Of a DNA stretch of 64,000 bases, positions 1,201 to 61,276 are shown piece by piece. Numbering within the stretch: the stretch's first letter is position 1; each line of letters begins with the position of its first letter. The DNA comes from Mya arenaria (taxonomy: Eukaryota), in assembly GCF_026914265.1 (NCBI RefSeq), contig NC_069133.1:48673355-48737354 (forward strand). Direction: 5' to 3'. A model generated the notes under the pieces. It was not told the origin of the DNA, did no database searches, and saw only the letters and a program-made list of their open reading frames with translations. The position numbers were made by a program, and so were the translations under genes.

Positions 1201-2103
1201 GAGCAGTGGTTTCTGTGAAAATATTTTTTTCCTTTCATTGGCCACTTTTATTGAAGGAATCAGGAAGAGGACCAGCTTTGAGGAGTGATTACGTGAAGTT
1301 TGGTTGAAATTGTCCCAGTGATTTAGGAGAAGTGGTTTGAAGGTAAATTTTGATAACGGAGAACAACAGATGATTACCCTATCATAAAAGCTCATGCTGT
1401 GCACTTTCTGCTCAGGTGAGCTTAAAAGACAGACAAATCAAATTGGTGTTTGCTCGCGTCTGGATTTTGTTCTGTTCCCCCATTTACCAATCCATCATAC
1501 TATTTTTAGGAAAAATAAATATGAGGCTGTAATTCAGTTTTCAATTTCTATAAATTACATTGAATTTGGTTGATTATAGAGTAAATGAAACCCCAAAAGT
1601 GCCAGATGTAGGCTTTCTTGTTCTTGATACTCCCAGACATTCTTGATACTCCCAGAAGCACTCTTTGAAGATCCTAAGGACTTTAATTGATGTGATTTCA
1701 AAGGAATTATTCATTTTTCAAATGGCTTTAATCTTGTTTAGCTTTGAAATTTAACACCGCAATCCATGTTTGAAAGAAGAATAAAATCCACTCATTTACA
1801 TGCTGACATGTTTTTTGTGAGTTTAGTTAGTGTGGACATCCCTGACCCAGGCTACAGTCGGTCATGTTAGAGTTTTATGCCAAGTTGTAACTAAAAATGC
1901 TGCAATTTTACGAAACCAGCTTTATAATGTGGGTAATAAAAATTATAGCCAATTTATTTCTTGTATGAGTTAGTTAAAAGTACCAGCCTTTATCTTTACC
2001 AAAGAGACATAATTGAAAAGTACATTAGTTAAGTTATAGCTTATGTGTTTAGTTTCCATCAATTCTAACTAAAGTTGTTGGGCGGGAACCATTTTTCTAT
2101 TTT

Positions 2104-2462
2104 AAAGCTGCACTCTCACAGACTTACCGTTTTTACAACCTTTTTATTTTTTGTCTTGGAAAGAACAAATTTATGCGTAAATATCTGCAAACCAATAATA
2201 AAAGATTGCTAACAAAAGATCAGATCGCAGATTTTCATATTTCCGTTCGAAAATTAATGTTTTATGGCTTAAACCGTAAATAACGGTTTAAGAAAAATAC
2301 ATAAAATATCAATTTTTGAACTTATATTTAAAAATCTGCGATCTAACTTTTTGTCAGCAGTCTTATATAACTGGTTTTCATGCATTTTTGCAAAAAGTGC
2401 TCGTTCCAAGACAAAAAATAAAACGTTGTTAAAACATTCAATCTGTGAGAGTGCAGCTTTAA
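2104..2462. mobile_element. MITE-like non-autonomous element (~360 bp), nearly palindromic, with terminal inverted repeats aaagctgcactctcacag / ctgtgagagtgcagcttt.
   Basis: Termini at 2104 and 2444 are reverse complements. Internal inverted motifs are ttttgtcttggaaagaac / gttccaagacaaaaaa. The same termini recur at 15064, 19987, 29672, 33795 and 34628. Confidence 0.75.
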
Positions 2463-3596
2463 GTAACCTTTAACTTTGACCCCCCCCCCCCCCTTAAAAA
2501 AACAGTCATCCCAAGCTCTTCACATAAGCTTCACAACTTTCCTTACTATCTAGCTAGCTTATGTTATTAGGGGGAAACCAATGTTTTGATGCCTGGCCAC
2601 CTTTCAGTCCATTCATTGAAAATCTTATTCAAAATGGCACTGTGCTGCAGAAAAGGAAATGAGTGCTTAGGGAGAAAAGGGCACATTTAATCAGGCTGTG
2701 AAAAACTTAAATATTAGGAATTGTGTTTATTTATTATAATTGAAATAATAATTGGTTTCAACTGGCGAATATGTCAAGTTTGTATGTATTAATAATCATA
2801 TTATAAGTTTTCATTAAAACAAAAGATATATAACAATCATATGCAATAAAATCTATGACAGCAAAATGATTCCCATGCTGTTCACCATGAGTGCAAAAGG
2901 GTGCTTCCAATCAACGACAGGCGGCAGCATCCCTCCATAACTGAATCCTACACATGTACGATTATAAAACGACTTTCATTGAGGTCTTAAAAAGAGAACA
3001 TATTGCTTACACTGCATAAAAAAACAAAAAGTTATAACCAAGCCTTTCAAGTTAAAACTGTTATAGAAACAAATGTTAGGTGTATACTTAAAGGTCACAT
3101 CCAGGCTAATAATCTGATCCAAACAAGGCTTGGCTTGACTATTATATGTAATTACATATCAATTTCTAGGAAATGACTTCAGAATTGTCTTTCATCTTTA
3201 ATAATAACTCTTTCTTTGAGACAAATAATGACACAGTTAAATTACCACCAGTAGCAATGACCTGATCAATGTGAAAGCAATGGATTTTTTTAATAATTCC
3301 TCTAATTGCTCAATAAAAGATATTTTCCACACATGGTAAATTACACTTAATACAGCTTTATGAGGCTCAAAGATTCATGCATATTTACATTAGAAGTTAA
3401 ATAGTTATTTACTTATTATTGTTGTTATGAAAGACAAAACTTAGAGCTGTCACAGGAGTGATGAATACCCCCAAATGCCGCCTGGACACAGGACACACAT
3501 AACTCCAAGGTTACTGCACACTGCATCTTCTTTTATCATGCATGTATTGTTTTATTTAAATCTGTTGAGTAATTTAGAAGTTACACTGCTGACAAG

Positions 3597-13887: not shown

Positions 13888-15063
13888 ATAAAAGTGGTTT
13901 TATCGCCATAATGTGCCATTAAGTTTGACTGTGTTCTTAGCTAAAGCATTATTACGTCTATAAAAAAATCATAAAAACAAGCCATTTTTCCATTATACGT
14001 TATTTCATTTTAGTTCTGAGCATGAAAAGTCATCCATCAAGCATTATGTATTTAATAATGTGTTTAAGAGTTTGTTTTTTTCATCACCGTCATAACTATA
14101 TTTAAAAAAGAAAGGCACCTGCAGTTCACAATGCAAAAATGTTGTCTGTGTCATAAGAACCTTTTTTGACCTGAATTTGATGAATAGGGTAGTCTGTTTT
14201 ACTGTTTTATTCATTTCATTTTGAAAGGATGGATCACTGAATGCATGGAAATGCTGGAAGTAGTCCTTTCTGTCATAATAAAGTATGTTGAACCCTAATT
14301 AAGTATATCAAATGAATTGCCCGTCTGGGAAAAAGCACAATTCCCCCCAAAAAAATTCCGGGATCTGGTCATTTCGTAACCTTATCATTTCGTAACCGCT
14401 GAATCTTGGTTATTTTGTAACCATTCTGTTATTCAATTTGTAACCACCAAGAAATCAATTGGTCATATGGTAACCATCAGTTAATGAGGTGATAATGGTA
14501 CACTTAGCACCTTGTTAAGTGTATTGTTTGATACTGAATGTATATGGCACAGAAACCAAGACACCAATTGGGAGACATTACTCAAATTCTCGCCAACAAC
14601 ACGCCAATAATTTGCATTCACTCAATAGTAATTAGATATATATATATATATCATATTAAATTCGAAATTATTTGTTAAACTACAAAAATATGTTAAATTA
14701 TTTTCTTAAATTATGCTTACTATTTGTGACTGATCGCGATGTAGTTATGAATAAAATTACGTTTTCAAATGATCAAGGGTCATTTAGACCTATTTCGTTG
14801 ACTGTATTTGTTTGCCTAAAATTTTTAGTTATGATATTAACATACAATAACACTTTACAAAATCATCCATCAGCACATTTAATATACAAATAGCATATAA
14901 AAATCGCATACTCTCATTCGGAAAACTCTCAACATTTTACAATACTTCTATGCAATTTAAAAACATGGCATCATTGATTAAAGCGTGGGTGCTATGAACT
15001 ATAATACACAACCTAAATAAAAATCTAAAGTTATATGGTCAATAAATTTAAAAATAAAAGCTT

Positions 15064-15250
15064 AAAGCTGCACTCTCACAGATTGAACGTTTTGACAACT
15101 TTTTTATTTTTGTCTTGGAAAGAGCTATTTTAGCGAAATTCCATGGAAACCAGTTGTATAAATGTGCTGACAAAAATTACATCGCAGATTTTCATATTTA
15201 AGTTAATAAATTGGCGTTTCATGCATTTTTTTTAAGCCGTTAGATTTATT
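15064..15250. mobile_element. Left half of a MITE of the same family as 2104-2462. It is separated from its right half (19800-19987) by the inserted LINE.
   Basis: aaagctgcactctcacagattgaacgttttgacaactttttt... matches 2104-2290, and the right half at 19800-19987 matches 2280-2462. Confidence 0.7.
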
Positions 15251-15691
15251 CGTGCATATATATGTCATTGTAACAAACCAAATATCTCATAAAGTTATAA
15301 CACAGACTGAATAACAAAGTATTAGTGATGATATCTATACTAAAGCACAACATCATTAGAATGCTTTGGATACATACGTGCGTTAACAAAGATTTAATTC
15401 AATGTGACAAATATATAACACAGGATAACCCATTAAAGTTATTCAACTTATTTCCAATGGGGTCCTTATGACAAATATAATTATTTGCCAAGATCTCAGT
15501 TATAAGCTGTTTAAATTAGGTTTACTTATACAAAAATAACATGCATGTACTCTTGACCAGTTAAAGAATGATTAAATGTTTGATATCGAACTTTTACAGT
15601 TATAATGCAACCGACTGTTAAAACCATATGACACTTTAGCATAATATGACAAAAATCTTTGGACTGATATGCAAGATTAAATGAATAACAA

Positions 15692-17341
15692 TTAATAAAA
15701 AAGGAAATCTTCCATTTCTGCACATTTCATACCAACAATGAGATGTGATTTCACTTCTTTTTTAAAAGTATTCTTATTTTTCAATTCTTTTAACTTTATT
15801 GGAAGACTGTTCCAGTCCTGGATTGCTTGATAAAAGAAAGTATTTAATATAAAACTGTCAGCCTGTGGCACTTTAAAATTTCCAGCACTATGTCTACTGT
15901 TGTAAGAATGTGTGGATGAGACTAAAGTAAAATGTTCATGTAAGTGTGATGGGCATTTGCTATTAAAGATTGTATGTACATGGTTTAGTCGTAGTTGCTT
16001 TATCCTATTTTCTATATTAAGCCATCCAATATCACTGAAAGCCGAGACTTTCAGGGAAGTTCTACAATCATAGCCATAAATAAATCTGACAACTTTGTTC
16101 TGAGTGACCTGTAATCTGTTCTTGAATTGTTTACATATACCACTGTACCAAGATGTCGATGCATAGTCAAAATGGCATTGTATTAAGGAGTTACATAACA
16201 ATCTTCTTAGATTCATATCTAAAAAACGATTTTGTCTATATAAAAATTTTAGCCTAGAATTAACTTTACTGACAATATTGTTAACAATAGATGCAGCACT
16301 GAGATCATTGTCCAGTATATTTCCAAGATATTTAACAGATTGTTTAGGTTTTATGATATGGCCATTGCAGTTTACATTAAAGCTATCAACTTTTGTTAGT
16401 TTTCTTTTAGACCCAAATAAAATACATTCTGTTTTTCCAAGATGCAAAGACAGTTTGTTGTCAACTAACCACTTACTACAGTTTTCAAGTTCCTTGCCGA
16501 GTACATTACTAATAACAGACGGATCTTTGTGTGAGAAAAGGATAGCACTATCATCTGCATATAATATTAATTTACATTTTTCACTTATGCTTATACTCAT
16601 ATCATTGACATAGCATAAAAACAGCAACGGTCCAAGTATGCTTCCTTGAGGAACGCCACAAGAGATGTTCATGAATTCAGACGTTGTATTATTTACATTG
16701 ACAACTTGTTTACGTCCAGATAAATATGATTGAAACCAATCAATTGAATCCACACCAATTTCTTTTAACTTCTGACATAGAATTTTGTGATCTACGGTAT
16801 CAAACGCCTTTTGAAGATCCAGCATAATCATTCCTGTATATAGACCTTTGGAATTTTGTTCTTTTATATGGTCGGTCAAATGAATTAGGCAGGAGTCAGT
16901 TGAATAGTTACATCTAAAACCACTCTGAAGTTCGTATAATAATCCATGTTTAACAAGAAAAGATTCTAGTTGGTTGTATACAACTCTTTCTAAGATTTTT
17001 GAAACTATACATAGTATGCTTACAGGTCGATAGTTTGAAACATCAGATCTGTTGTTTTTCTTAAACAATGGTTTAACTTTAGCATTTTTGAGTTCAGATG
17101 GTACAATGTTACTTGTGATAGAACTGTTTATCAGAAATGTTACTGGTATCTTTAAAAATGGTGCAGCATCTTTTAAAAATCTTGCAGGAATGTTATCTAA
17201 CCCTGTGCTTTTTGAACAATTTAGTTTACATAGTTCCTTGTAAATGTATTCTTCACTAACAGTGTGAAGTTTAAATTTAACAGAGTCAGGATTTCTATCT
17301 TTATAAAATCGTTTAAAACAGTCAGACTCATAGTTAAACAA
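15692..17341 (-). CDS. LINE reverse transcriptase domain, carrying on from the endonuclease ORF after a frame disruption.
   Basis: 549 aa with RT motifs: RPVSILCIVSKILERVV, GFRCNYSTDSCL, MIMLDLQKAFDTVDH, and YADD in LILYADDSAILF. The C-terminal segment is Cys/His-rich. Confidence 0.85.
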   Translation of the reverse strand: MFNYESDCFKRFYKDRNPDSVKFKLHTVSEEYIYKELCKLNCSKSTGLDNIPARFLKDAAPFLKIPVTFLINSSITSNIVPSELKNAKVKPLFKKNNRSDVSNYRPVSILCIVSKILERVVYNQLESFLVKHGLLYELQSGFRCNYSTDSCLIHLTDHIKEQNSKGLYTGMIMLDLQKAFDTVDHKILCQKLKEIGVDSIDWFQSYLSGRKQVVNVNNTTSEFMNISCGVPQGSILGPLLFLCYVNDMSISISEKCKLILYADDSAILFSHKDPSVISNVLGKELENCSKWLVDNKLSLHLGKTECILFGSKRKLTKVDSFNVNCNGHIIKPKQSVKYLGNILDNDLSAASIVNNIVSKVNSRLKFLYRQNRFLDMNLRRLLCNSLIQCHFDYASTSWYSGICKQFKNRLQVTQNKVVRFIYGYDCRTSLKVSAFSDIGWLNIENRIKQLRLNHVHTIFNSKCPSHLHEHFTLVSSTHSYNSRHSAGNFKVPQADSFILNTFFYQAIQDWNSLPIKLKELKNKNTFKKEVKSHLIVGMKCAEMEDFLFY

Positions 17342-19133
17342 AGGGCAAAGGTAGTTTTTTTACTAAAGTTGAGGCTACAGTAGTAAAAAAAGTATTAAAG
17401 TGATTTGCAATCTTACATGGTTCAAAACAATTTTCATCATCAATGTTCAAAACAATATTTGGAGAAGATTTACTTTTACTACTATATCCAAGATTTTTTA
17501 AATCTGACCACAGCTTTTTTGGATCATTTTTATTTTCTTCCAGCTTGTTCGACATATATTCCGATTTGGCCTTAATAACTTCTTTCTGAACAAGGTTTCT
17601 GTAAAAACGATATTTATCTAACATCTCCTTCTGTTTGTATATTTTGAATTTGAAATAAAAAGCATCTCTTTGACTGATGAGTTCCAGAATGTTAGAATCT
17701 AACCATGGTTCACTTCTTTGTTTTAGTCTGACTTCCTTAACAGGAGCAACAGTGTTCAAAACTGACAGAAATGTTTCTTTAAAAGACAGCCATGAATCTT
17801 CTACAGTTTTTGCAATAAACATGTTTGACCAATCGCAAAGTTTAAGTTTGTGAATAAAATGATCTACATTGTAATGTTTCAAAGACCTTACAACAACATT
17901 CTTATGCATATTATACGTCCCTTTCTGTGTTTTACGCGTACAAAATACAGGCAAATGATCACTGAGACCTATCGGAAGAGTACCAGACTGAACAATCTTG
18001 TTTTGATGGCTACATAAAATGTGATCTAACACAGAAGAGGAGGACTCTGAGATTCTGGTAGGGTCATTTATGATCTGTTTTAGATTAAAGATATTAAGAA
18101 CTTGTTCAAACCTTTTAAAAAGAGCTGATTTCTTTGCAAAAAAACAAATGTTAAAATCACCAAGGATGTACCATTCTGTGTCAGATCTAACCATAGATAA
18201 AACATTTTCAAAAATATCAACAAAATCTGTTTGTTTAGGTGGTCTATAACATGACCCTATTAAAATAGGTTTGGTTTTTGGTAATAAAATATCAGCCCAC
18301 ACTGCTTCAAGATTGTCATTTTCTAGGTCCCGTCTTTCGGTGAACGCCAGATCTTCATTAACGTATAAGCATACTCCACCACCTTGTCTGTTCCGGTCCT
18401 TTCTGATCACATTGTATCCTTGAATTTGTATTTCCGAGTCCATAACTGAATTGTCCAGCCAGGTCTCTGAAAACGCTATGGCTGCAAATCTATATTTTGA
18501 CATTAAATGTCTCACTTCGGGCAACTTTGGTAATAGAGATCGTATGTTGAAATGAATAAAATGAAGTCCTTTAAGTTCAAAGCAGTTAAAATTACTACAA
18601 GATTCAGCAAAACTATTGTCATGTAAATCTGGCAGAATTCTATCATGAATATCGTTTAAATCATCACAAAGATAAAAAGATAATAATTTAAAAGTACATA
18701 TCCGACAAGTGAAATAGAAAGATCCATTAGATTTGCATACGTTTGAGTAAAAAGAATCACTTATATAACCTGAGCATCTTATATGTGTCCGGATTTCACA
18801 AAAATCACAGTTGACAGCTTTACTACGGGCAGTTACACCTTTTCCACAAACCGAACAAGGAAATTTAGGTTGTCTCCCTTTTTTCATATTTGAAAATCCC
18901 GAATTATCAGCATACTTGTCCTGTTCAATAGGTCCAGGGTGAGGGTGCACGTCACCACTTAGTAGAAGGAACACGAAAAATATATATCTTGGATTAACCT
19001 TGGCATAATACTTCTGAAGGTTTTTAATAGTTCTCATGGAGGATACAAAATGGCTGGGTGCCACTTCAACCACTGGGGGCGAAAGGTACGAAAGAATTTC
19101 AAACGTGAAAATACTTTTTTTTTGTAGAGTCAA
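17334..19133 (-). CDS. LINE ORF2 N-terminal part. It has a 2A-like motif, a PHD-like zinc finger (CSVCGKG...CDFCEIRTHIRC) and an apurinic/apyrimidinic-type endonuclease domain.
   Basis: 599 aa. EEP/APE hallmarks are present: ...NIRSLLPKL..., GDFNICFF, LSDHLPV. A Cys/His cluster lies upstream of them. Confidence 0.8.
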   Translation of the reverse strand: MTLQKKSIFTFEILSYLSPPVVEVAPSHFVSSMRTIKNLQKYYAKVNPRYIFFVFLLLSGDVHPHPGPIEQDKYADNSGFSNMKKGRQPKFPCSVCGKGVTARSKAVNCDFCEIRTHIRCSGYISDSFYSNVCKSNGSFYFTCRICTFKLLSFYLCDDLNDIHDRILPDLHDNSFAESCSNFNCFELKGLHFIHFNIRSLLPKLPEVRHLMSKYRFAAIAFSETWLDNSVMDSEIQIQGYNVIRKDRNRQGGGVCLYVNEDLAFTERRDLENDNLEAVWADILLPKTKPILIGSCYRPPKQTDFVDIFENVLSMVRSDTEWYILGDFNICFFAKKSALFKRFEQVLNIFNLKQIINDPTRISESSSSVLDHILCSHQNKIVQSGTLPIGLSDHLPVFCTRKTQKGTYNMHKNVVVRSLKHYNVDHFIHKLKLCDWSNMFIAKTVEDSWLSFKETFLSVLNTVAPVKEVRLKQRSEPWLDSNILELISQRDAFYFKFKIYKQKEMLDKYRFYRNLVQKEVIKAKSEYMSNKLEENKNDPKKLWSDLKNLGYSSKSKSSPNIVLNIDDENCFEPCKIANHFNTFFTTVASTLVKKLPLPFV

Positions 19134-19799
19134 AACAGTTGAAAAGTGTTTTTTCGCCTGGAGAATATTTATGTTTTGTTTTAGGCTGGTTGGTATCGTT
19201 GTATTCCACTGCCTTTAAATATATTTGAAGAAGTATACAGGCGACTAATATTCCACGAAAAGCCACCATCTTGAACGACTAGACTGTTATCTCCTGTATT
19301 AAAACGAAATTAAATGTCTCACCAGTACGTACAGAAGAAAAAGTGACTCTCCACATATGTTGAAAAAATAATTTACTCTTCCTTTTTACTAAGCTTGTAA
19401 GTCCCTCTTCGGTTATTTCTACGCCGGGATCCGAACACTATCAAGCGTTTACGTTATATCTCCTGTGGAATTGTTGTTCGATTTTGTTGAATTTGTCATA
19501 AACGGTATGGTTGTTGGCAAAATGATTGTTCACTGTTGATTTCCCATCTTTTAAGTTAAAGTTCCGTCTTTTTCCTCTTTGTAACTCGATTTTTTTGCGC
19601 CGACGTCAAAGCAAATTTGAAGTTTTCCAAAGTTCACACAAACCATCTTGATGAAAATTGTACCATAAGACGTGAATTTTAATTTGACATCGTTTGATAA
19701 TATTTTTTTAAATATTGCTTAAGAAATAATGTTAAAATAATTTATTTTTGTTAAAATATATAAGAGCGTCATTTTTTACAACTTGTTATGATGACGTCA

Positions 19800-19987
19800 T
19801 TTCCGCATGACGTTAGTAACGGTTTAAGCCATAACACATTTATTTTCCAATGGAAATATGAAAATCTGGGATCTGGTCTATTGGTTTGCAGATATTTACG
19901 CAAAAATTTGCTCTTTCCAAGACAAAAAATAAAATAGTTGTAAAAATGGTAAATCAGTGAGGATGCATCTTTAAGGTATTTACAGCC
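19800..19987. mobile_element. Right half of the interrupted MITE. Its degenerate terminus is cagtgaggatgcatctttaag.
   Basis: gctctttccaagacaaaaaataaaatagttgtaaaa...cagtgaggatgcatctttaag versus gctcgttccaagacaaaaaataaaacgttgttaaaa...ctgtgagagtgcagctttaag in the intact copy. Confidence 0.65.
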
Positions 19988-29200: not shown

Positions 29201-29574
29201 CCACTACTCGCCAGTTTGCTATTTAAAGTTCCCATCAAAAATCAATAAGCAATCTACCATTTGTACTAACAACATTATCTTCAGATTTTTTTGGCAAAAT
29301 AGTATCGGTTGTTTATTACACAGGTAAAAGGTTTTGATCTCTTAATGTGTTCTTACCATCTACTACCAAGTCTAGCAAAGTCCCTACCCTTGAATTTAAA
29401 TTCCCAAGTATTGTTTAAATACGATTATGGTCATCATTTTGTTGCTTAATTGAAATTATATTTTGTTCAATAACATCATAATTGTTATTTCCAACTTGAG
29501 GGTTTCTGTTAGAATTAGAAGGTGCAATATAAGTATTACATATTACAAATAAATAGATAACAGTCGTTTATCAC

Positions 29575-29672
29575 TGGTTTCCATGGATTTTCGGAAACAA
29601 TCGCTCGTTCCAAGACAAAAAAATACAAAAAAGTTGCCGAATCGTTCAATCTGTGAGAGTGCAGCTTTAAAA
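29575..29672. mobile_element. Truncated copy (right end only) of the aaagctgcactctcacag MITE family.
   Basis: ...cgctcgttccaagacaaaaaaatacaaaaaagttgccgaatcgttcaatctgtgagagtgcagcttta. Confidence 0.6.
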
Positions 29673-31945: not shown

Positions 31946-32351
31946 ATGGAAGGAATTTCATCCGGCGTTGCGATTACTTGGAGAAATCAGAGTACTGGTG
32001 GTGATAGTGAACATCTATTCCACAACACAACTGGCAACGGAAGTGAACCTCTATACCAATACTCAACTGGCAATGATAGTGAACATCTATACCAATCGTC
32101 AGACCAGCCGTACATTCCCATGTACCTGAATGTACTAGTGGCGGTGCTTAACGCTATCATATTCATCATTGGCGTTACGGGAAATATTCTGGTCATCACT
32201 GTGATCTTAAAACTGCGGGAAATGAGGACGCCGACAAATGTGTTTCTGCTAAACTTGAGTGTAGCAGACGTCTTGTTTCTGGTCGTGTGCCAACCTGCCG
32301 CTCTGCTCGAGTTCTTTGGAAAGGACAGGTGGTTTCTAGGGGAGGCCATGT
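31946..32351 (+). CDS. Class A (rhodopsin-like) GPCR, exon 1. It encodes the N-glycosylated N-terminus, TM1, TM2 and the start of TM3 up to GEAM-.
   Basis: ATG at 31946. N-x-S/T sites are present. TM1 is IFIIGVTGNILVITVIL and TM2 is NVFLLNLSVADVLFLVV. The conserved W (DRWFLGEAMC) is present. The donor consensus gtgagt sits at 32352. Confidence 0.8.
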
Positions 32352-33794
32352 GTGAGTTATGCATTTCTTTATCACTTTTGTGATTTGTGTTTTTTTATTT
32401 TTTAAAAAGAAATATTGGCAGCTAGCTAACCACTAATTTCGAGAGGAAGGACGTAGCGAATCATGACTATTATTTAGCACCGTAGATGAGCATTATTCGA
32501 TAAATTATCGCTGATGGCCTTCCACAGTGCAAATGTCGTTGAATGACCAAAACATACAATGCTTAAAAAAACTTTATTTTTCATTTAATTTTGAGGTAAC
32601 AAGCATAACACATTCACCTATACATATTTTTGAAACATTTTAATTTGGCCTTTCCCACCAATTTTTGCATTGTGGAAGGTCCTTGTCGACTCGCGGTCCT
32701 TTACAATTTTGTAATGCGACACTTATTTATATGTGCAATGCATCTGTAAAAATATCCTTTATTGTTGTGGGTCTTCAACAGACTAAATGATGCAATCAAC
32801 CTATTGCTAATCACTTCTTTCAACAGATTTAGATGTTGATAACCGTTTTTTCCCAACTCGACATGATCTATAAAATGAGAATGAAAGATACAATACACAT
32901 TCCAATAAAAGTATGCCGTATTCATCCGAGAACGTTATAGTTGATAACAAAAGAACGTGCAAATATATAAATGTACAATATATTTGTTGTTACTGATTTT
33001 ATTAGGCCACATCAATTTAATGTTCTGTTCTTCGGATTCTGTCAGATATAAATCGGAGCTAGCAGACAATTTTTAAAAATAAAATAAAAAACAAACCCGG
33101 AGTGGACAGAGGTGTAACCAAATTTTCATACTTAATTAATCATTTAGAATATTTATCCTGAATAGGTTCAACTTTATTCTTCCTCTTAAATGTAATTTTA
33201 AGCAAAACCCAGGAGTAATCATTACAAATAACTATTTCAATTGTTTTGGGAGTCGTCAAAGACATATAATGACATGTTTTGCTTTGTGTGATACATTTTC
33301 TGGGAAATAGACGCGGAACGTAGAACGAAACGTCAGTGTTATGTGGCCGAAACAATATCAAAGTAATCAGACCAACACTGATTAAAATAAATATGTACCA
33401 CCCCGTTGAATTTCCTGATGGATAAATTAATCTTAATGTTAAATGTTGGGGCCTTGTGACTCCATACACTTTTGGTATTAAGTTTATGTTTGCTTATGTG
33501 CAATCACGAGTACATTCCAAGGGCTCTAGTCATTGCAGTTGGTATTTTTACACTTTATTTCAACTGAAATTGGACGTGTAACAACCTATTTTTATGAAAT
33601 GATGTAAGGGCTAAAACGTTTGTCACATACATCTGCGATTAGCGTGTAGCGTAACTGTGTATTATTTCTGATTATCCATCAGTTATTTTTCGCATATGCT
33701 TACATCATATAAGTGATAATAGCAACCATATTTTAACTTTACAAACAGTTACGTAAACTTCACAATTTCCTTTTAAATGGTTCCCTCAATATTC

Positions 33795-34628
33795 TAAAGC
33801 TGTACTCTCACAGATTGACAGTTTCGACTTTTTTAAGTTTTTGTCGCAGAATCAACTGATTTGGTATCGATGCATTACAGTCATATATCAGTGTGTGTAT
33901 ACCACGTGATAAATTACGTCATATATGCTACCAGGGAAGGCAACATTTTGCTTAAAATGAAATCTTAAATCAAATATAACTTTTCTTTTACAACACCATT
34001 TTAAATGAAACAAAGGGCAGGATATGCCGCTTAAAGAGCCCCGCGTTTGTTTTATTACCGAAATTTGATAAAGTTATTTCATCAAGCACTTAGACAAACC
34101 TGTTTCCAAAATAATGTTTTGACAGTGCTCTGTCAGACGGCCGTATTGCGAAAAGGTTTGTCGAAGTGTTTTAAGAAACTAAACTCTCAATCAAAATCTG
34201 GTAAAAGACCGAAGGCAGGGCTCCGTAAGCTGCGTAGACTGCGCTGTGTTTCATTTAAAATGGTAAAGAAATTGTGAAGATATCTTTGTTTAAAGTATTT
34301 TTTAAAGCAAAATATTGCCTTCCGACTTAGCATTTATGACGCAATTTATCACGTGGTATACACACACTGTATATGATAACTCACAAAAGAATAGGTCTCA
34401 ATGGAATTGAAACACGCCGAAAAACTCATTTTTTTTAAAGTGTTTGAAACGCTTTTAGCCTTAAAACATCAATTTTTGAACGTAAGTATGAACAACTGCG
34501 ATCTGATCGTTTGGAAGGAGTCTTACAACACTGGTCTCCAGATATTTACGCAAAAACTGGCTCATTCCCAGCCAAAAACAACAACAACAAAAACTGTCAG
34601 TACGGTCAATCTGTGAGAGCGCAGCTTC
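33795..34628. mobile_element. Non-autonomous element of ~830 bp in the GPCR intron. It has the same terminal inverted repeats as the MITE family plus an inner inverted repeat.
   Basis: Termini ctaaagctgtactctcacagattgac and caatctgtgagagcgcagcttcaag. The inner inverted repeat is cagtgtgtgtataccacgtgataaattacgtcat (33888) versus atgacgcaatttatcacgtggtatacacacactg (34337). Confidence 0.7.
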
Positions 34629-36175
34629 AAGATAAGTGTTAAATCACCAAATATTCAATGAGACTAATGTATTAAACAAGTTTCATTTAAAAGCTTAGAA
34701 TCTTGTTTGAGCATTTCATCACTTTACGACCAAATGGCTTACTTCCGAAAATGTGTACATATGTAATCTAGTCTTCCTAATAATATTACATATGACAATA
34801 AGAAGCTTGTGAGCCCAAAAGCTTAATGTTATTCAAAATACTGACAATTGGGGATGAATGAAAGTGCTGTTTGATGTCGCTAGCATAAATTCCCAATTGT
34901 CAAATGATTCTTCCTAGAAAGAACTTACCACATTGAATAAGTAAGATTTTAAAGTAAAGTTTATTGGCTGATAAAATTGTTCCCTTTATTTGAATTGGTG
35001 TTTTTCAGAAGAACGCAATTAAATTGCTTAAAAGAGATTATAATGTTCCATTAGGGAGCGCCAAATAACTTCCGATGGTTAAACTATTCAAAGAAGCGTG
35101 GCGAAAACACGTACATGAAAAAAATGGGATTGATTTTCAAGGTTGCGAAAATAATAGAGGTTGCGAAACACTACACTTCCGACAACGAACATTCTCTTTT
35201 AAAATTAGTTTTCACTTTACGTCGCGATAAAAGCATAACATCCACCGCGTTCATTTCGATAATTTTTACAGCGACCATCTACGTCGAGAGAAAGCTATAC
35301 GCGGCGTTGCGATGTGTTAACTAACGGTAATTAAGATAGCTAAAGATTTTCTAAAGGCTGATTCTTTGTTTCCCTCCTATAAATATAATTCTAGTCAGTT
35401 TTATTTCACTCATGCAATCCGACCTGAAATCTACAAATCAGTTGGTTCTAACGGCAACGTAGTTTGGTCCTCGAAAATTGCCTTATCATGTACGCGAAGC
35501 TACGCGTGCGACTAAAAGTTACTGTGTAGACTTTTGCAACAGTTCACTTTACGCATTGAATGTTACTAGCGCTAGCGGATCCAGGGTGCTGCAACCGCTG
35601 CGCCCCTCCCTAAAATCGTCCTTGTTTATCATTTTTTTATCAATAAAGAAGAAAAGAAAGTAATACAATACCCCCCTCCCCCCCCAAAAAAAAATAAAAA
35701 AATATATCACCATTTCGGACTAGAATTTGCTCCTCCAAAACCACGTCAACATTTTAAACCAAACACATTTTTGCTTCTAAGGGACGGGCGGAAGTCAAGT
35801 TACGCCCCTCAGTTACGCCCCTTTTTAGCGTCAAATCCTTGACTCGCATAAGTCACTAAATTCCTCGTGCCTTTTAAAATGTCATTTTAACTTGTACATG
35901 TACAATTCATCTGGATATATATCTGGATGACGTAGTGTACGAGAAGTAGATCAAGTAGCGTTCCGCCATCTCTATACTATCCTAATATTTGCATGAGTGC
36001 ATGTGTGCATGCGTTTTTCAATTTGTACAATTAACGCACACCTGTACAAAATAGCATAATAAAAGATAGTCCACTAGTGCATGTATCAGTACAACTTACA
36101 TTTTGCAATCTCTCTGGCGTCTCAAACAAAATCCTGCAAACTTAATGCAAGCTTATCAATTCTAAATATTTTCAG

Positions 36176-37071
36176 GTAAACTCGTGCCGCTGCTGGAAAA
36201 CGGTACACTGCACGTGTCCATTCTGACGATGCTCGCGGTGACATTCGAACGCTACTTTGCCCTCTGCCATCCCCTTAAGCAGCATATGGTTTGCACAATC
36301 TCAAAGACAGTCAAGTGTCTTCTCCTCATATGGGCGGTTGCCGTGTTTTTGACAGTACCTTTTCCCGTAATGACTGTCCTTGAAGATGCTACTTTCTATG
36401 ACGGAACTCCTACTAAAGTGTGTAGAACCAAAATAAACTCCTCGTGGAAATATGGTTATACTATTTTCGTTGTAGTCGCCTTTTTTGCCATTCCATTGAT
36501 TATTCTAGTAAGTATTTATATCAAAATCATTCATCAGCTCATGTCAGATACATTGAATAAGCTGACACAAAATAAAAGATCAGCTTTACAGACAATCGCG
36601 AGACGACAAGTTGTGTATATGCTTATTCTAATTATGGTTCTCTTTTTTGTAACTTTATTCCCAATACGTGTTTTAACGCTGTGGTTAATATTCAGCCCGG
36701 CTGAAAATGTCTACACAATTGGATTAGAGGCATTTCTGAATTTAATTTCTTGGTCCAGAATCCTTATGTATGTCAACAGTGCGGGAAACCCGATCATTTA
36801 TTGTCTGACATCAACAAAATTTAAAATGGCATTTAAGCGCTTACTAAAACGTAATGATGGTTATCTTTATGTTAGCTACAATACAATGACTGCAAGATTC
36901 AATGTTCATCGGGCATATAAAGGTGATCCAGAGAGGGCCCGAACGATCACCAGAAAACCAATAGATATATCATCATCGAAATCCACCACGTCAGGATCTA
37001 AACCAGCTGGTGACGACCAACACCAAGATGTTGACAAACTGAATGGAAGTACCAGGCACAGTTTTGATTGA
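36176..37071 (+). CDS. Class A GPCR, exon 2 (TM3-TM7 plus C-tail). It carries ERY and NPxxY motifs and is neuropeptide-receptor-like, of the ghrelin/neuromedin-U/TRH receptor superfamily type.
   Basis: Acceptor attttcag| at 36174-36175. Phase 1 joins T+GT into TGT, the conserved TM3 Cys of ...EAMCKLVPLL.... Motifs present: TFERYFALCHPLK and NSAGNPIIYCL. Stop at about 37069-37071. Confidence 0.8.
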
Positions 37072-57989: not shown

Positions 57990-60472
57990 GACCGATCGAC
58001 TTCGACAATTCATCACGACATTGAATATTTCCTATATAAGATCGAATGTCGAGCTAGAATTCCGTCCAGCTCGACATTGCAGCTCAACATTGAAGATTTG
58101 CTATATAATATCGAATGTCGAGCTAGAATTCCGTCCAGCTCGACATTGCAGCTCAACATTGAAGATTTGCTATATAATATCGAATGTCGAGCTAGAATTC
58201 TGTCCAGCTCGACATTCCGGCACGACATTGAATATTTCCTATATAATATCGAATGTCGAGCTAGAATTCCGTCCAGCTCGACATTGAAGATTTGCCATAT
58301 AATATCGAATTCTAGCTAGAATTCCGTCAACTCGACAATTAATCACGACATTGAATATTTCCTATATAATATCGAATCTCGTGCTAGAATTCCGTCCAGC
58401 TCGATATTGCAGCTCGACATTGAAGATTTGCTATAAAATATCGAATGTCGAGCTAGAATTTTGTCCAGCTCGACATTGCAGCACGACATTGAAGATTTGC
58501 TATATAATATCGAATGTCGAGCTAGAATTTCGTCCAGCTCGACATTGCAGCTCGACATTGAAGATTTGCTATATGATATCGAATGTCGAGCTAGAATTCC
58601 GTCCAGCTCGACATTGTAGCTCGGCATTGAAGTTTTGCTATATTATAATGAATGTCGAGCTAGAATTCTGTCCAGCTCGACATTGCAGCTCGACATTGAA
58701 GATTTGCTATATAATATCGAATGTCGAGCTAGAATTTCGTCCAGCTCGACATTGCAGCTCGACATTGAAGATTTGCTATATAATATCGAATGTCGAGCTA
58801 GAATTTTGTCCAGCTCGACATTGCAGCTCGACATTGAAGATTTGCTATATGATATCGAATGTCGAGCTAGAATTCCGTCCAGCTCGACATTGTAGCTCGG
58901 CATTGAAGTTTTGCTATATTATAATGAATGTCGAGCTAGAATTCTGTCCAGCTCGACGTTCCAGGTCGATATTAAATATCTGCCATATAATATCGATTTT
59001 CGAGCTAGAATTCTGTCCAGGTCGACGTTCCAGGTCGACATTGAAGATTTACTATATCATATCGAATGTCGAGCTAGAATTCCGTCCAGGTCGACAATTC
59101 ATCACGACATTGAATATTTCCTATATAATATCGAATGTCGAGCTAGAATTCCGTCCAGCTCGACATTGCAGCTCGACATTGAATATTTGCTATATAATAT
59201 CGAATGTCGAGCTAGAATTCTGTCCAGCTCGACATTGCAGGTCGACATTGAAGATTTGCTATATAATATCGAATGTCGAGCTAGAATTCCGTCCAGCTCG
59301 ACATTGAAGATTTGCCATATAATATCGAAAATGTAGAGCTAGAATTCCGTCAACTCGACAATTAATCACGACATTGAATATTTCCTATATAATATCGAAT
59401 CTCTTGCTAGAATTCCACCCAGCTCGACATTGCAGCTTGACATTGAAGATTTGCTATAAAATATCATATGTCGAGCTAGAATTTTGTCCAGCTCGACATT
59501 GCAGCTCGACATTGAAGATTTGCTTTATAATATCGAATGTCGAGCTAGAATTCCGTCCAGCTCGACATTGCAGCTCGACATTGAAGATTTGCTATATAAT
59601 ATCGAAGGCCGAGTTAGAATTTTGTCCAGCTCGACATTTCAGCTCGACATTGAAGATTTGCTTTATAATATCGAATTTCGAGCTAGAATTCCGTCCAGCT
59701 CGACAATTCATCACGACATTGAATATTTCCTATATAATATCGAATGTCGAGCTAGAATTCCGTCCAGCTCGACATTGCAGCTCGACATTGAAGATTTGCT
59801 ATATAATATCGAATGTCTATATATATTTTTGTCCAGCTCGACATTGCCGCTCGATATTGAAGATTTGCTATATAATATTTATTTAATAATATTTTATTTA
59901 TAAACATTATTACAATTGTCAAAATATTTACATACATGTATATAGAAAAGTTTGAAATAAATGTTATCAAAGTTGTATGCAAAAGGGTCGAGCCACAAGT
60001 TATCAACAACATTAGTTACGGCCCTCCCCTTGCTATATAATATCGAATGTGGAGCTAGAATTCCGTCCAGCTCGACATTGCAGCCCGACATTGAAGATTT
60101 GCCATATAATATTGAATGTAGAGCTAGAATTCCGTCAACTCGACAATTAATCACGACATTGAATATTTCCTATATAATATCGAATCTCGAGCTAGAATTC
60201 CGTCCAGCTCGACATTGCAGCTCGACATTGAAGATTTGCTATAAAATATCGAATGTCGAGCTAGAATTTTGTCCAGCTCGACATTGCAGCTCGACATTGA
60301 AGATTTGCTATATAATATCGAAGGCCGAGCTAGAACTTCGTCCAGCTCGACATTACAGCTCGACATTGAAGATTTGCTATATGATATCGAATGTCGAGCT
60401 AGAATTCCGTCCAGCTCGACATTGCAGCTCGACATTGAAGATTTCCGATATAATATCGAATGTCGATTGTCG
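57990..60472. repeat. Satellite DNA array with a 69-bp monomer (~33 copies, several variant subtypes). A ~165-bp AT-rich insertion interrupts it at 59870-60035.
   Basis: Monomer atcgaatgtcgagctagaattccgtccagctcgacattgcagctcgacattgaagatttgctatataat. It contains an EcoRI site (GAATTC) and the 9-bp dyad tgtcgagct/agctcgaca. The 69 = 3x23 periodicity produces long ORFs in several frames on both strands. Confidence 0.95.
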
Positions 60473-61276
60473 ATTGCCGATGGCTGAGCCAACTTCACAC
60501 ACATCTAATAAAATCCTTAAATTATTTGATAATTATTTCCAACTATTTACAATAATGAATGCAATACATCAATTTATTCCGGTTGTGAAACTAAAATAGT
60601 CTAGTTTAATATTGTTATTCAGCTTGAAATCCACCACATCAGCAGCCATTTGTATAAACCTTTCAGGGGTTCAAAAAAAGTAAATGATCTTAGTCAGACA
60701 TTTGATGACACTAATGTTACAAACAAGTCGTGACCGGTTTTGTTAAATCTTTAAGTCCTAGAGGAATTCAATGTTTACTTAGTGAGAATGCTGTGTCGTC
60801 GAGTGTGAATGTATTCCCCATAGTAAAATGATTTTGCCTTGTCAACACCATGCCGCAATATTTACACCTCAACTTCTATTCCTTAAATGAACTGCCTTTC
60901 GGCATCGATTGATGAACGCAACATCTTCGGATGTGTTCGGATCGCAATTCATAGCATAACAATATACATGAAAACTATTGATCTTGTTATTGGCTGTATT
61001 GTGTCAGCAGGTCCAGTAAAATATAGATCAACATTTTAGAAAATATATTTTTAAATATATTGGTACCAGAAGTGTTTCAATTTTTACGTTTTAAAGTGAT
61101 TTCAAGTGGTTGATCTTTTCCCGCGTTATTGTGACGTCATTTGAAAAAAATGTTTCCGGTTATAGTCGGGTCGTTCTATTTACAGAATGGGTAAGAACGG
61201 ATTACTGAAAGGCTTTCTTAAAGGAAATGAAGTAGTTCTTTAACAATTCTTGAATGAAATAATGAACCCTTGGTGT

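What the first reader, a model, noticed from the sequence alone, without database searches (positions are those of the whole stretch)
18927..18965. Degenerate 2A-like peptide motif (GDVHPHPGP) at the N-terminus of the LINE ORF
The ORF 17334-19133(-) reads ...FFVFLLLSGDVHPHPGPIEQ... ahead of the zinc finger and endonuclease. The hydrophobic tract followed by GDV-x-x-x-PGP resembles the ribosome-skipping 2A consensus D(V/I)ExNPGP. 2A-like sequences have been reported at the N-termini of some non-LTR retrotransposon ORFs, including in molluscs and echinoderms. Here E becomes H and N becomes H, so the motif may be an inactive relic or a divergent variant.
Basis: partly seen in the sequence, partly recalled or inferred. 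Interest (0 to 1): 0.6.

Follow-up and report, generated by a model that had tools for sequence, protein, structure and literature searches.

The report
Conserved double-histidine 2A-like site in LINE
The motif is real and is the inherited, selectively maintained "ribosome-skipping" (2A/StopGo-type) site of a clam LINE retrotransposon family whose normal version carries histidines where viruses carry glutamate and asparagine; this particular copy is broken by frameshifts.

Summary
Observation confirmed. Window 18930-18956(-) encodes GDVHPHPGP after a Leu-rich tract. It is the only D[VI]xxxPGP in the six-frame translation (about 0.01 expected by chance).

It lies in a single-ORF LINE with this order: leader, 2A-like site, PHD finger, APE endonuclease, RT.

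The motif is not a private decay product:
- The closest relatives outside the motif (P0028, P0093, P0084) carry exactly GDVHPHPGP. All nine codons differ synonymously among the four DNAs, with no amino-acid change.
- In 136 relatives the consensus is LLL(S/C)GD(V/I)-H-P-(N/H/C)-PGP. The canonical E is a minority.
- Intact 1076-1163 aa ORFs carry H or C at the "N" position.

In the literature, natural viral variants with H at either position alone were >95% active. The double-H core is untested, and N-to-H is poorly tolerated in F2A/P2A.

The ancestral start is ATG 19269. It encodes a signal-peptide-like leader, and the motif is at aa 105-113. An extra A in an A9 run (19115-19123) and a second frameshift (17340/17341) break this copy.

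Verdict: a conserved divergent 2A/StopGo-type site, with activity inferred and not shown. "Inactive relic" is not supported at family level. Interest is moderate.

The parts
18930..18956 (-). 2A/StopGo-like core G-D-V-H-P-H-P-G-P (p11-p19). The predicted skip would fall between G (18933-18935) and P (18930-18932).
   Evidence: Identical nonapeptide with only synonymous codon differences in L001, L002 and L003. D, P, G, P are invariant in alignment A1.
18957..18986 (-). Leu-rich hydrophobic tract YIFFVFLLLS immediately upstream of the core. p6-p11 reads FLLLSG.
   Evidence: Family logo: p5-p9 L-rich, p10 S/C, p11 G. It matches the viral 'LLLLSG' upstream class (Li 2026). The equivalent segment in P0028 is predicted helical, residues 93-103.
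19213..19269 (-). Ancestral start codon (ATG 19267-19269) and signal-peptide-like N-terminus MVAFRGILVACILLQIYLK of the leader.
   Evidence: Parallels P0028 (MAAVRGIFTACIIFIFLVK) and P0084/P0093 (MAAGxGG + hydrophobic stretch). 33 of 44 homolog N-termini have a hydrophobic 13-mer with KD>=2.0, against 1% of control segments.
19115..19123 (-). A9 homopolymer holding a 1-nt insertion. It puts the ancestral ATG out of frame with the motif. From ATG 19269 translation stops at 19099-19101.
   Evidence: P0154 (Mya arenaria WAR27637.1) reads the homologous stretch in one frame but matches the window in two frames. Deleting one A gives a 644-aa ORF with the motif at aa 105-113, the same position as in P0028.
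18957..19269 (-). Leader (about 104 aa when the frame is repaired): hydrophobic N-terminus, a poorly conserved and probably disordered linker with an 'SP..HFV' patch, then the Leu-rich tract.
   Evidence: AlphaFold2 on homolog P0028: helix 2-29, pLDDT<50 for 27-91, helix 93-103.
19035..19037 (-). First in-frame ATG of the present-day ORF. If used, the leader would be only 35 aa and would lack the hydrophobic N-terminus.
18696..18857 (-). PHD-type zinc finger (C4HC3 spacing) between the 2A-like site and the endonuclease.
   Evidence: Regex and coordinates. Weak C1_1 hit. PHD/PHD_Pygo hits in homologs. High pLDDT in the P0028 model.
17955..18554 (-). APE-type endonuclease domain.
   Evidence: Pfam Exo_endo_phos, E=2.8e-13.
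17340..17341 (-). Second frameshift, joining the endonuclease frame to the RT frame.
   Evidence: tblastn of P0001, P0013, P0014, P0006 and P0012 switches frame here with contiguous query residues. Sequence.
15692..17341 (-). Reverse-transcriptase part of the same ORF (RVT_1 at 16319-17059) and the C-terminal region ending ...WNSLP....

Best explanation
GDVHPHPGP with its FLLLS tract is the StopGo/2A-type recoding site of a single-ORF, APE-type LINE, probably in Mya arenaria or a close bivalve relative. In active members of the family one ORF of about 1100-1200 aa encodes, in order: a roughly 105-aa leader with a signal-peptide-like N-terminus, the Leu-rich + GD(V/I)xxxPGP site, a PHD finger, the endonuclease and the RT.

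Inferred mechanism, by analogy with the F2A-ribosome structure:
- The Leu-rich helix and D12 clamp the nascent chain in the exit tunnel.
- His at p14 replaces the stacking of Glu on A3640.
- His at p16 replaces the hydrogen bonds of Asn to U4277/U4198.
- The peptidyl-tRNA(Gly) ester is hydrolysed instead of attacked by Pro-tRNA.
- The leader is released ending in ...HPG.
- Translation resumes at Pro to make PHD-EN-RT.

What is shown:
- The site is inherited.
- It is the consensus of its lineage.
- It is under purifying selection.
- It is carried by intact, multi-copy elements.

What is inferred: that the double-His core actually skips, and how efficiently.

This particular copy is probably dead. 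A 1-nt insertion in an A9 run uncouples the ancestral ATG from the motif, and a second frameshift separates EN from RT.
For: 1. Positional homology. Of 103 relatives with the PHD finger and at least 70 aa upstream, 86 have [G/S/N]D[V/I]xxxPGP within 70 aa before the finger (median 12.5 aa). About half have canonical N at p16. Most of the remainder show obviously decayed versions.
2. Family logo from 136 sequences: L-rich p5-p9, S/C p10, G p11, D p12, I/V p13, H57/Q20/E16 at p14, P at p15, N64/H44/C13 at p16. p17-p19 were required by the selection pattern.
3. Judged on sequence outside the motif, the nearest relative that retains an N-terminal region is P0028 (58% identity), and P0093 and P0084 (48-49%) are among the next nearest. 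All three have exactly GDVHPHPGP. In the four DNAs every one of the nine codons shows synonymous differences and there is no replacement.
4. Within-family consensus in other genomes. P0084 cluster: 4 copies GDVHPHPGP and 1 GDFHPHPGP. P0037 cluster: all HPH. P0060 (227 members), P0059, P0116 and P0117 clusters: all HPC.
5. Intact full-length ORFs with EN+RT carry variant cores: P0294 (1163 aa, HPH), P0302 (1139 aa, HSH), P0310 (1076 aa, HPC).
6. An EN-tree clade keeps H16 while p14 and p15 vary (ELH, KPH, KTH, HLH, HVH).
7. The substitution spectrum at p16 is H and C rather than the one-step neighbours D, S, K, T, Y, I. That is not what random decay gives.
8. Literature:
   - Natural viral p14=H and p16=H variants were each >95% active in reticulocyte lysate, and LLLLSG is a validated upstream class (PMC12846837).
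   - E14H was tolerated in P2A, score 0.85 (bioRxiv 10.64898/2026.09.24.754024).
   - 2A-like sites in mollusc CR1 elements were active (PMC3708506).
Against: - No activity assay exists for a core with H at both p14 and p16.
- Saturation mutagenesis of F2A and P2A found NPGP intolerant to substitution, score <0.2.
- In class B peptides H at this position was consistently less active than N, and some peptides lost all activity.
- N16H in F2A was only modestly active.
- In this family p16 also takes C, Q, D, K, E. That is looser than in viruses and could mean the constraint is not classical skipping.
- Same-genome copies of this exact family could not be retrieved. The 'family consensus' evidence therefore comes from relatives at 48-58% identity and from other families.
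- In this copy the motif is out of frame with the ancestral start.
Confidence: 0.6

Rival explanations
1. The motif is conserved but is not an efficient skipper. It would act mainly as a nascent-chain stalling or attenuation element that lowers output of EN-RT. Alternatively it skips only partially, so that the signal-like leader sends part of the product to the ER and leaves the rest cytosolic (dual targeting).
For: - A 2026 high-throughput preprint reports that most retrotransposon-associated 2A-like peptides fell in a 'reduced protein abundance' class: 59% of ORF2p-type and 70% of ORF1p-type (PMC13405545).
- H at p16 lowers activity in class B peptides and in F2A.
- The Ryan group proposed 2A as a down-regulator of ORF2 in single-ORF LINEs (PMC3894237; PMC3708506).
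- Signal sequence plus partial 2A gives dual targeting in sea-urchin NLRs (PMC4981915).
- The hydrophobic leader is conserved here.
Against: - Natural H14 and H16 variants tested in their own context were >95% active.
- The strict conservation of D12, P17, G18, P19 and of the Leu-rich tract is exactly the skipping signature.
- Nothing here measures abundance or targeting.
Confidence: 0.3
2. Inactive relic. A once canonical DVExNPGP site lost function by E-to-H and N-to-H changes and now drifts neutrally, in this copy or in its whole family.
For: - Both 'key' residues differ from the viral consensus.
- This copy carries two frameshifts.
- Odon 2013 considered accumulation of inactivating mutations the simplest explanation for variant non-LTR sites.
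Against: - The identical nonapeptide occurs in relatives that are only 48-58% identical elsewhere, with synonymous-only codon differences.
- H is the commonest residue at p14 and the second commonest at p16 across the group.
- Intact full-length, multi-copy elements carry H16 or C16.
- The p16 spectrum is not that of random mutation.
Confidence: 0.07
3. Chance resemblance of an unrelated peptide to the 2A consensus.
For: The motif is short, and two of the eight consensus positions do not match.
Against: - The expected count is 0.01 per window.
- The motif is at aa 105-113 of the repaired ORF, exactly as in P0028.
- 83% of PHD-bearing relatives have the motif at the same place.
Confidence: 0.01

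Closest known systems
N-terminal 2A-like sequences of APE-type non-LTR retrotransposons (Odon et al. 2013, PMC3708506: CR1, L2, Crack, Rex1, Ingi clades, including mollusc CR1-1_CGi and CR1-1_LG; Heras et al. 2006 L1Tc)
   Same: - The site lies in the N-terminal region of a single long ORF, upstream of (PHD)-APE-RT.
- There is no room for an ORF1.
- The hosts are molluscs, echinoderms and the like.
- The E position is heterogeneous.
   Different: - Those sites were found with GD(V/I)ExNPGP as probe and keep N at p16.
- Here the lineage consensus has H at p14 and H at p16 (C in sister lineages).
- The site lies about 105 aa, rather than 40-80 aa, from the start.
- The leader begins with a signal-peptide-like segment that those papers do not mention.
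- The clade of the window element (CR1, L2 or Crack) was not determined.
Viral class A / 'LLLLSG'-type (motifs 2 and 6) StopGo sequences and their rare natural p14=H or p16=H variants (Li et al. 2026, PMC12846837)
   Same: - Upstream hexapeptide FLLLSG.
- p12 D, p13 V, and P-G-P.
- Each of the two histidines has a natural, tested (>95% active) precedent on its own.
   Different: - Both histidines occur together, which the one-mismatch searches could not detect.
- p15 is P, whereas L-rich viral motifs prefer S.
- The host is a cellular retroelement, not an RNA virus.
Class B 2A peptides (Rao et al. 2025, PMC12338488): W...EG(I/V)E-P-(N/H)-PGP
   Same: The tail is P-(N/H)-PGP, with H about as frequent as N. 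A proline precedes that residue.
   Different: There is no invariant Trp at about position 16 from the end (here it is Phe) and no EEGIE stretch. Instead there is the class A Leu-rich + GDV arrangement. This is therefore not a class B member.
Sea-urchin NLR '2A-like signal sequences' (Roulston et al. 2016, PMC4981915)
   Same: An N-terminal signal-like hydrophobic sequence is combined with a StopGo site ahead of a cytosolic or nuclear protein.
   Different: There the 26-aa 2A-like peptide itself is the signal sequence. Here the hydrophobic N-terminus and the 2A-like site are separate and about 70-80 aa apart. Signal function here is only inferred from hydropathy.

Membership tests
StopGo/2A, class A (L-rich upstream + GD(V/I)ExNPGP) | C-terminal P-G-P with the skip between G and P | tested here: met
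   PGP at 18930-18938(-). It is invariant in relatives.
StopGo/2A, class A (L-rich upstream + GD(V/I)ExNPGP) | D (or G/C/N) at p12, V/I at p13, G at p11 | tested here: met
   G-D-V in the window. Family counts: G127/136, D133/136, I74+V61.
StopGo/2A, class A (L-rich upstream + GD(V/I)ExNPGP) | E at p14 | tested here: not met
   H in the window, and H is the family majority (57/136). H14 is a documented functional variant in viruses and in P2A mutagenesis.
StopGo/2A, class A (L-rich upstream + GD(V/I)ExNPGP) | N at p16 | tested here: not met
   H in the window. Family counts: N64/H44/C13. H16 is active in natural viral contexts but poorly tolerated in F2A and P2A.
StopGo/2A, class A (L-rich upstream + GD(V/I)ExNPGP) | Appropriate hydrophobic or helical upstream tract | tested here: met
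   FLLLSG against the viral LLLLSG class. The equivalent tract is predicted helical in P0028.
StopGo/2A, class A (L-rich upstream + GD(V/I)ExNPGP) | Demonstrated co-translational separation of upstream and downstream products | not testable with these tools
   This needs an in vitro or in vivo translation reporter. No published test of an HxH core was found.
Non-LTR N-terminal 2A-like site (Odon 2013) | [quoted passage not shown] | tested here: met
   The order is leader, site, PHD, APE, RT. The motif is at aa 105-113 of the repaired ORF.
Non-LTR N-terminal 2A-like site (Odon 2013) | Single-ORF element (no ORF1) | tested here: met
   There is no minus-strand ORF of 60 aa or more between ATG 19269 and an unrelated repeat at 19882-19975. 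Relatives of 1139-1163 aa sit on contigs of 3.7-4.1 kb.
Non-LTR N-terminal 2A-like site (Odon 2013) | Motif shared by other members or copies of the family | tested here: met
   Copies from the same genome were not obtainable.
Class B 2A (Rao 2025) | Invariant Trp about 16 residues before the terminal Pro, and an EEG(I/V)E centre | tested here: not met
   The window has F at that position and LLLSGDV in the centre. Only the P-H-PGP tail resembles class B.
Signal-sequence + 2A dual-targeting arrangement (Roulston 2016) | Functional ER signal sequence upstream of, or overlapping, the 2A site | tested here: inconclusive
   Hydrophobic N-terminus in 33 of 44 relatives against 1% of controls. Predicted helix at residues 2-29. 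Sequons only weakly enriched, 89 observed against 68.5 expected. No signal-peptide predictor or translocation assay was available.

The most novel reading that the evidence does not exclude
A large metazoan LINE group (molluscs, echinoderms, crustaceans, fishes) uses a StopGo core in which the two 'invariant' ribosome-contacting residues are replaced: H at p14, and H or C at p16, with C found only together with H14. The variant core still skips. It would release an ER-targeted, signal-peptide-bearing leader, so that the LINE mRNA is translated at the ER or nuclear envelope while PHD-EN-RT stays cytosolic or nuclear. This would be a natural, selected alternative solution to the NPGP rule, and a previously unnoticed targeting step in LINE biology.
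Probability: 0.3. Interest if true: 0.7.

Novelty: new variant of a known kind. Interest (0 to 1): 0.45.

Why it matters
The DxExNPGP core is usually treated as nearly invariant. Recent surveys of class A peptides counted only about four with His before PGP (Rao 2025), and they searched with at most one deviation. Those search designs would miss most of this LINE group. Here His at the Glu position is the norm, and His or Cys replaces Asn in about 40% of representatives, with clear purifying selection and intact multi-copy elements.

If these cores skip, three things follow:
- The sequence rules and the structural model (N16 hydrogen bonds, E14 stacking) need widening.
- Motif-based censuses of cellular StopGo sites are underestimates.
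- New compact co-expression tags become available.

If they do not skip, then a strongly conserved 2A-shaped motif has another function in LINE translation control.

For the window itself the practical result is annotation. It holds a roughly 4-kb single-ORF LINE copy with two frameshifts, and its ancestral start is at 19269.

Tried and rejected
- Other copies in the window: none. tblastn and blastn of the element found only itself plus an unrelated ~180-bp repeat.
- Same-genome copies from databases:
  - A word-index search with the repaired N-terminal 234 aa returned one distant hit.
  - The only near-identical fragment, P0154 (Mya arenaria chimeric gene model), ends before the motif. Its contig is not on record.
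- Literal text search for HPHPGP, HPCPGP, VHPNPGP and IHPNPGP found no 2A paper.
- The supplementary tables of Rao 2025 and of the 2026 eukaryotic screen are not held. I could not see which two or four class A HPGP peptides were already listed, or whether an HxH core was ever assayed.
- N-glycosylation sequon enrichment in the leader is weak: 89 observed against 68.5 expected, Poisson p about 0.01. It is not used as evidence.
- The AlphaFold2 model of P0028 shows no folded domain in the leader, so no fold search was run.
- A programmed frameshift at the A9 run was considered and rejected. Another copy (P0154) reads through in one frame.
- Class B membership was rejected (no Trp, no EEGIE).
- LINE clade assignment (CR1, L2 or Crack) and the exact 5'/3' ends were not resolved. 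Tandem-repeat and sequence inspection of the 3' region was uninformative.
- The neighbour-joining EN tree is star-like. It places the window next to P0001 (QVN core), while the N-terminal module is closest to P0028 (HPH). Monophyly of HPH cores is therefore not established.
Full report
**1. Observation**

On the minus strand the ORF 17334-19133 reads ...KVNPRYIFFVFLLLSGDVHPHPGPIEQDKY....
- The nonapeptide GDVHPHPGP occupies 18930-18956.
- It is the only D[VI]xxxPGP in the six-frame translation of the 64-kb window. 300 shuffles of the window give 0.01 such matches, and none with the preceding G.
- Downstream lie a PHD-type C4HC3 finger (18696-18857), an APE endonuclease (Exo_endo_phos, E=2.8e-13) and an RT (RVT_1, E=3e-37) after a change of frame at 17340/17341.

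**2. Anatomy of the element**

Only one copy of the LINE is in the window.

Homologs align across the 17340/17341 junction with contiguous residues, so EN and RT were one ORF and this copy has a frameshift there.

The listed ORF begins at a TTG, and its first ATG is 19037. However, the in-frame sequence upstream of that ATG (FTFEILSYLSPP...HFV) is homologous to coding sequence of relatives such as P0028 and P0092.
- In another frame, ATG 19269 opens MVAFRGILVACILLQIYLK.... This parallels the N-termini of P0028 (MAAVRGIFTACIIFIFLVK) and of P0084 and P0093.
- The two frames meet in an A9 run at 19115-19123.
- A Mya arenaria gene model (P0154, WAR27637.1) contains the same leader from another copy in a single frame (...DSTEKSIFTFEILSYLSPP...). 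It matches the window in two frames.
- Removing one A restores a 644-aa ORF down to the second frameshift. The motif then sits at aa 105-113, exactly as in P0028.

So the ancestral protein ran leader (about 104 aa), 2A-like site, PHD, APE, RT. This copy carries two frameshifts but no in-frame stop. It is either a young dead copy or contains homopolymer assembly errors.

There is no room for an ORF1. No minus-strand ORF of 60 aa or more lies between 19269 and an unrelated repeat at 19882-19975. Full-length relatives of 1139-1163 aa sit on contigs of 3.7-4.1 kb.

The best database relative over EN-RT is a Ruditapes philippinarum protein (P0001; RT part 86% identical). A bivalve source, probably Mya or a close relative, is inferred but not shown.

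**3. Is the motif a private decay product?**

It is not.

*Frequency in relatives.* Among the 120 best homologs, about 48 retain an N-terminal region with LLLxGD(V/I)xxxPGP. Seven of them have exactly GDVHPHPGP.

*Unbiased survey.* An index-free HMMER search of 1.84 billion cluster representatives with the N-terminal 191 aa gave 143 new proteins.
- 90 have the motif.
- At the 'E' position the counts are H33, Q14, S12, E11.
- At the 'N' position they are N47, H28, Q5, C5, D4.
- HPH is the commonest triplet.

*Non-circular test.* Anchoring on the PHD finger instead of the motif avoids circularity.
- Of 103 proteins with the finger and at least 70 aa upstream, 86 carry the motif within those 70 aa.
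- About nine of the remaining 17 show obviously decayed versions (GDIHPHPGL, GDVHPELGP, and others).
- About seven carry a different conserved motif, described in section 7.

*Logo.* The pooled logo of 136 sequences is L-rich (p5-p9), S/C (p10), G (p11), D (p12), I/V (p13), H>Q>E (p14), P (p15) and N64/H44/C13 (p16). The PGP at p17-p19 was part of the selection pattern.

*Closest relatives.* Judged only on sequence outside the motif, the window's nearest relative that keeps an N-terminal region is P0028 (58% identity). P0093 and P0084 (48-49%) are among the next nearest. All three have GDVHPHPGP.

*Codons.* I fetched the DNA of those three and compared codons. All nine motif codons differ synonymously among the four sequences, and there is no amino-acid replacement. 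This is the signature of purifying selection on the active lineages.

*Other families.* Every recovered member keeps its family's variant.
- P0084 cluster: 4 copies HPH plus one GDFHPHPGP.
- P0037 cluster: all HPH.
- P0100 cluster: HSH.
- P0060 (227 members), P0059, P0116 and P0117 clusters: HPC.

*Intact elements.* Uninterrupted ORFs with EN and RT carry these cores: P0294 (1163 aa, HPH), P0302 (1139 aa, HSH), P0310 (1076 aa, HPC).

*Other signals.*
- In a neighbour-joining tree of the EN domain one clade keeps H16 while p14 and p15 vary.
- The residues seen at p16 (H, C) are not the commonest one-step mutational neighbours of Asn codons. This argues against drift.
- C16 occurs only with H14 (15/15). 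H14 is associated with H/C16 (odds ratio 7.3, Fisher p=3e-7, not corrected for phylogeny).

**4. What is known**

*Non-LTR elements.* Odon et al. 2013 (PMC3708506) described 2A-like sites in the N-terminal region of single-ORF APE-type non-LTR elements of molluscs, echinoderms, amphioxus, Xenopus and cnidarians.
- Some have a PHD finger between the 2A site and APE.
- Mollusc CR1 sites were active.
- The Glu position was heterogeneous in CR1.

*Class A and B.* Rao et al. 2025 (PMC12338488) found Asn essentially invariant in class A. They knew of only two, plus two more, class A peptides with His. His is common in class B (P-(N/H)-PGP) but is less active than Asn there.

*Structure and natural variants.* Li et al. 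2026 (PMC12846837) solved the F2A-ribosome structure.
- N16 hydrogen-bonds U4277 and U4198.
- E14 stacks on A3640.
- D12 bonds G3636.
- The Leu-rich helix packs in the tunnel.
- Rare natural viral variants with p14=H or p16=H were >95% active in their own context.
- LLLLSG is one of the main upstream classes.

*Mutagenesis.* A 2026 saturation-mutagenesis preprint found E14H tolerated in P2A (0.85), but NPGP intolerant in P2A and F2A.

*Abundance.* Another 2026 preprint reports that most retrotransposon 2A-like peptides reduce protein abundance.

I found no paper text containing HPHPGP or HPCPGP in a 2A context. The relevant supplementary tables were not available.

**5. Mechanism**

The window's p6-p19 is FLLLSG-DVHPHPGP. 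This equals the validated LLLLSG + D(V/I)ExNPGP arrangement at 11 of the 13 specified positions; p15 is unconstrained and p6 is F rather than L. The two core deviations (p14 and p16) are each, singly, functional natural variants.

The most likely reading is that active members of the family use it as a StopGo site.
- It would release a leader of about 112 aa ending ...HPG.
- Translation would restart at Pro to make PHD-EN-RT.
- An imidazole could plausibly replace both the stacking of E14 and the hydrogen bonding of N16. This is inference from the F2A structure only.

I put about 0.6 on this. I put about 0.3 on the alternative that the conserved site mainly attenuates or only partly separates the products. 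The relic and chance readings are largely excluded. Efficiency is unknown, and the published context-dependence of N16H argues for caution.

In the present copy the site is out of frame with the ancestral start, so it is not expected to operate here unless the A9 run is an assembly error.

**6. The leader**

The leader starts with a conserved signal-peptide-like N-terminus.
- 33 of 44 relatives that start with Met and have at least 50 aa upstream of the site contain a hydrophobic 13-mer (mean Kyte-Doolittle >=2.0) in the first 40 aa. Only 1% of 1037 control segments from the same proteins do.
- Many start MA(A/S)Gxx(G) followed by 12-17 hydrophobic residues.
- AlphaFold2 on P0028, with a 30-sequence alignment, predicts a helix at 2-29, a low-confidence stretch at 27-91, and a helix at 93-103 abutting the core.
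- The non-LTR 2A papers I could read do not mention this.
- The nearest precedent is the sea-urchin NLR '2A-like signal sequence'.
- Whether it is a real ER signal is untested. Sequon enrichment is weak.

**7. Also noticed**

A sub-lineage has a conserved GNK(A)AHxYxGN motif in place of the 2A-like site. It sits directly before the PHD finger, and these proteins still have the hydrophobic leader.

**8. Verdict**

The 'degenerate / inactive relic' reading is not supported at family level.

The element belongs to a known kind, the N-terminal 2A-like sites of single-ORF LINEs. It has a core variant (H14 with H16; C16 in sister families) that published motif searches would miss, and that appears undescribed and untested in the literature I could search. 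Interest is moderate. The instance itself is a broken repeat copy, but the family-level pattern makes a clear, cheap experimental prediction.

Noticed in passing
window 15061-15242(+), 2281-2463(-), 2102-2266(+), 29573-29670(-), 34464-34631(-), 19882-19975(-), 33795-33845: An interspersed repeat of about 180 bp with core TTAAAGCTGCACTCTCACAGATTGAACG...TTTGTCTTGGAAAGAGC. At least six copies are 71-86% identical and lie on both sides of the LINE. It looks like a SINE or MITE. It bounds the LINE to roughly 15250-19880.
   Followed up: partly
related proteins P0006, P0007, P0090, P0120, P0168, P0187, P0191, P0243: A sub-lineage of the same LINE group lacks the 2A-like site. At the same place, just before the PHD finger, it has a conserved motif GNK(A)AHxYxGN. 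It still has a hydrophobic N-terminal leader rich in N-x-S/T. The function is unknown, and it may be an alternative to StopGo.
   Followed up: partly
window 19213-19269(-) and the N-termini of relatives: The leader upstream of the 2A-like site starts with a conserved signal-peptide-like segment (MAAGxxG + 12-17 hydrophobic residues). It is present in 33 of 44 relatives against 1% of control segments, and is predicted helical. The non-LTR 2A papers I read do not mention it.
   Followed up: partly
window 19115-19123 and 17340-17341: Two frameshifts, and no in-frame stops, in a coding region of about 1190 codons. The first is an extra A in an A9 homopolymer. Either this is a young dead copy or the assembly has homopolymer errors.
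   Followed up: yes
related protein P0154 (Mya arenaria WAR27637.1, 'AOFA-like protein'): This annotated amine-oxidase gene model contains about 80 aa of this LINE family's leader as an internal segment, 93% identical to the window over the best-matched 42 aa. It is either a chimeric annotation or an exonised LINE 5' fragment. It also points to Mya arenaria or a close relative as the source of the window.
   Followed up: partly
related proteins (141 motif-bearing sequences): Cys at the 'Asn' position occurs only together with His at the 'Glu' position (15/15). Pro at p15 is enriched when p16 is H or C. This is apparent co-variation within the core, not corrected for phylogeny.
   Followed up: partly
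related proteins P0065 (Neoarius graeffei), P0105 (Myripristis murdjan), P0042 (Xyrauchen texanus): Fish genomes carry members of this LINE group, and two of the three named proteins have 2A-like cores (HIN-PGP in P0065, HQC-PGP in P0105). [quoted passage not shown]
   Followed up: no
window 58351-60599(+), 36184-37071(+), 31946-32383(+): These are further ORFs of 130-318 aa elsewhere in the window. They were not examined.
   Followed up: no
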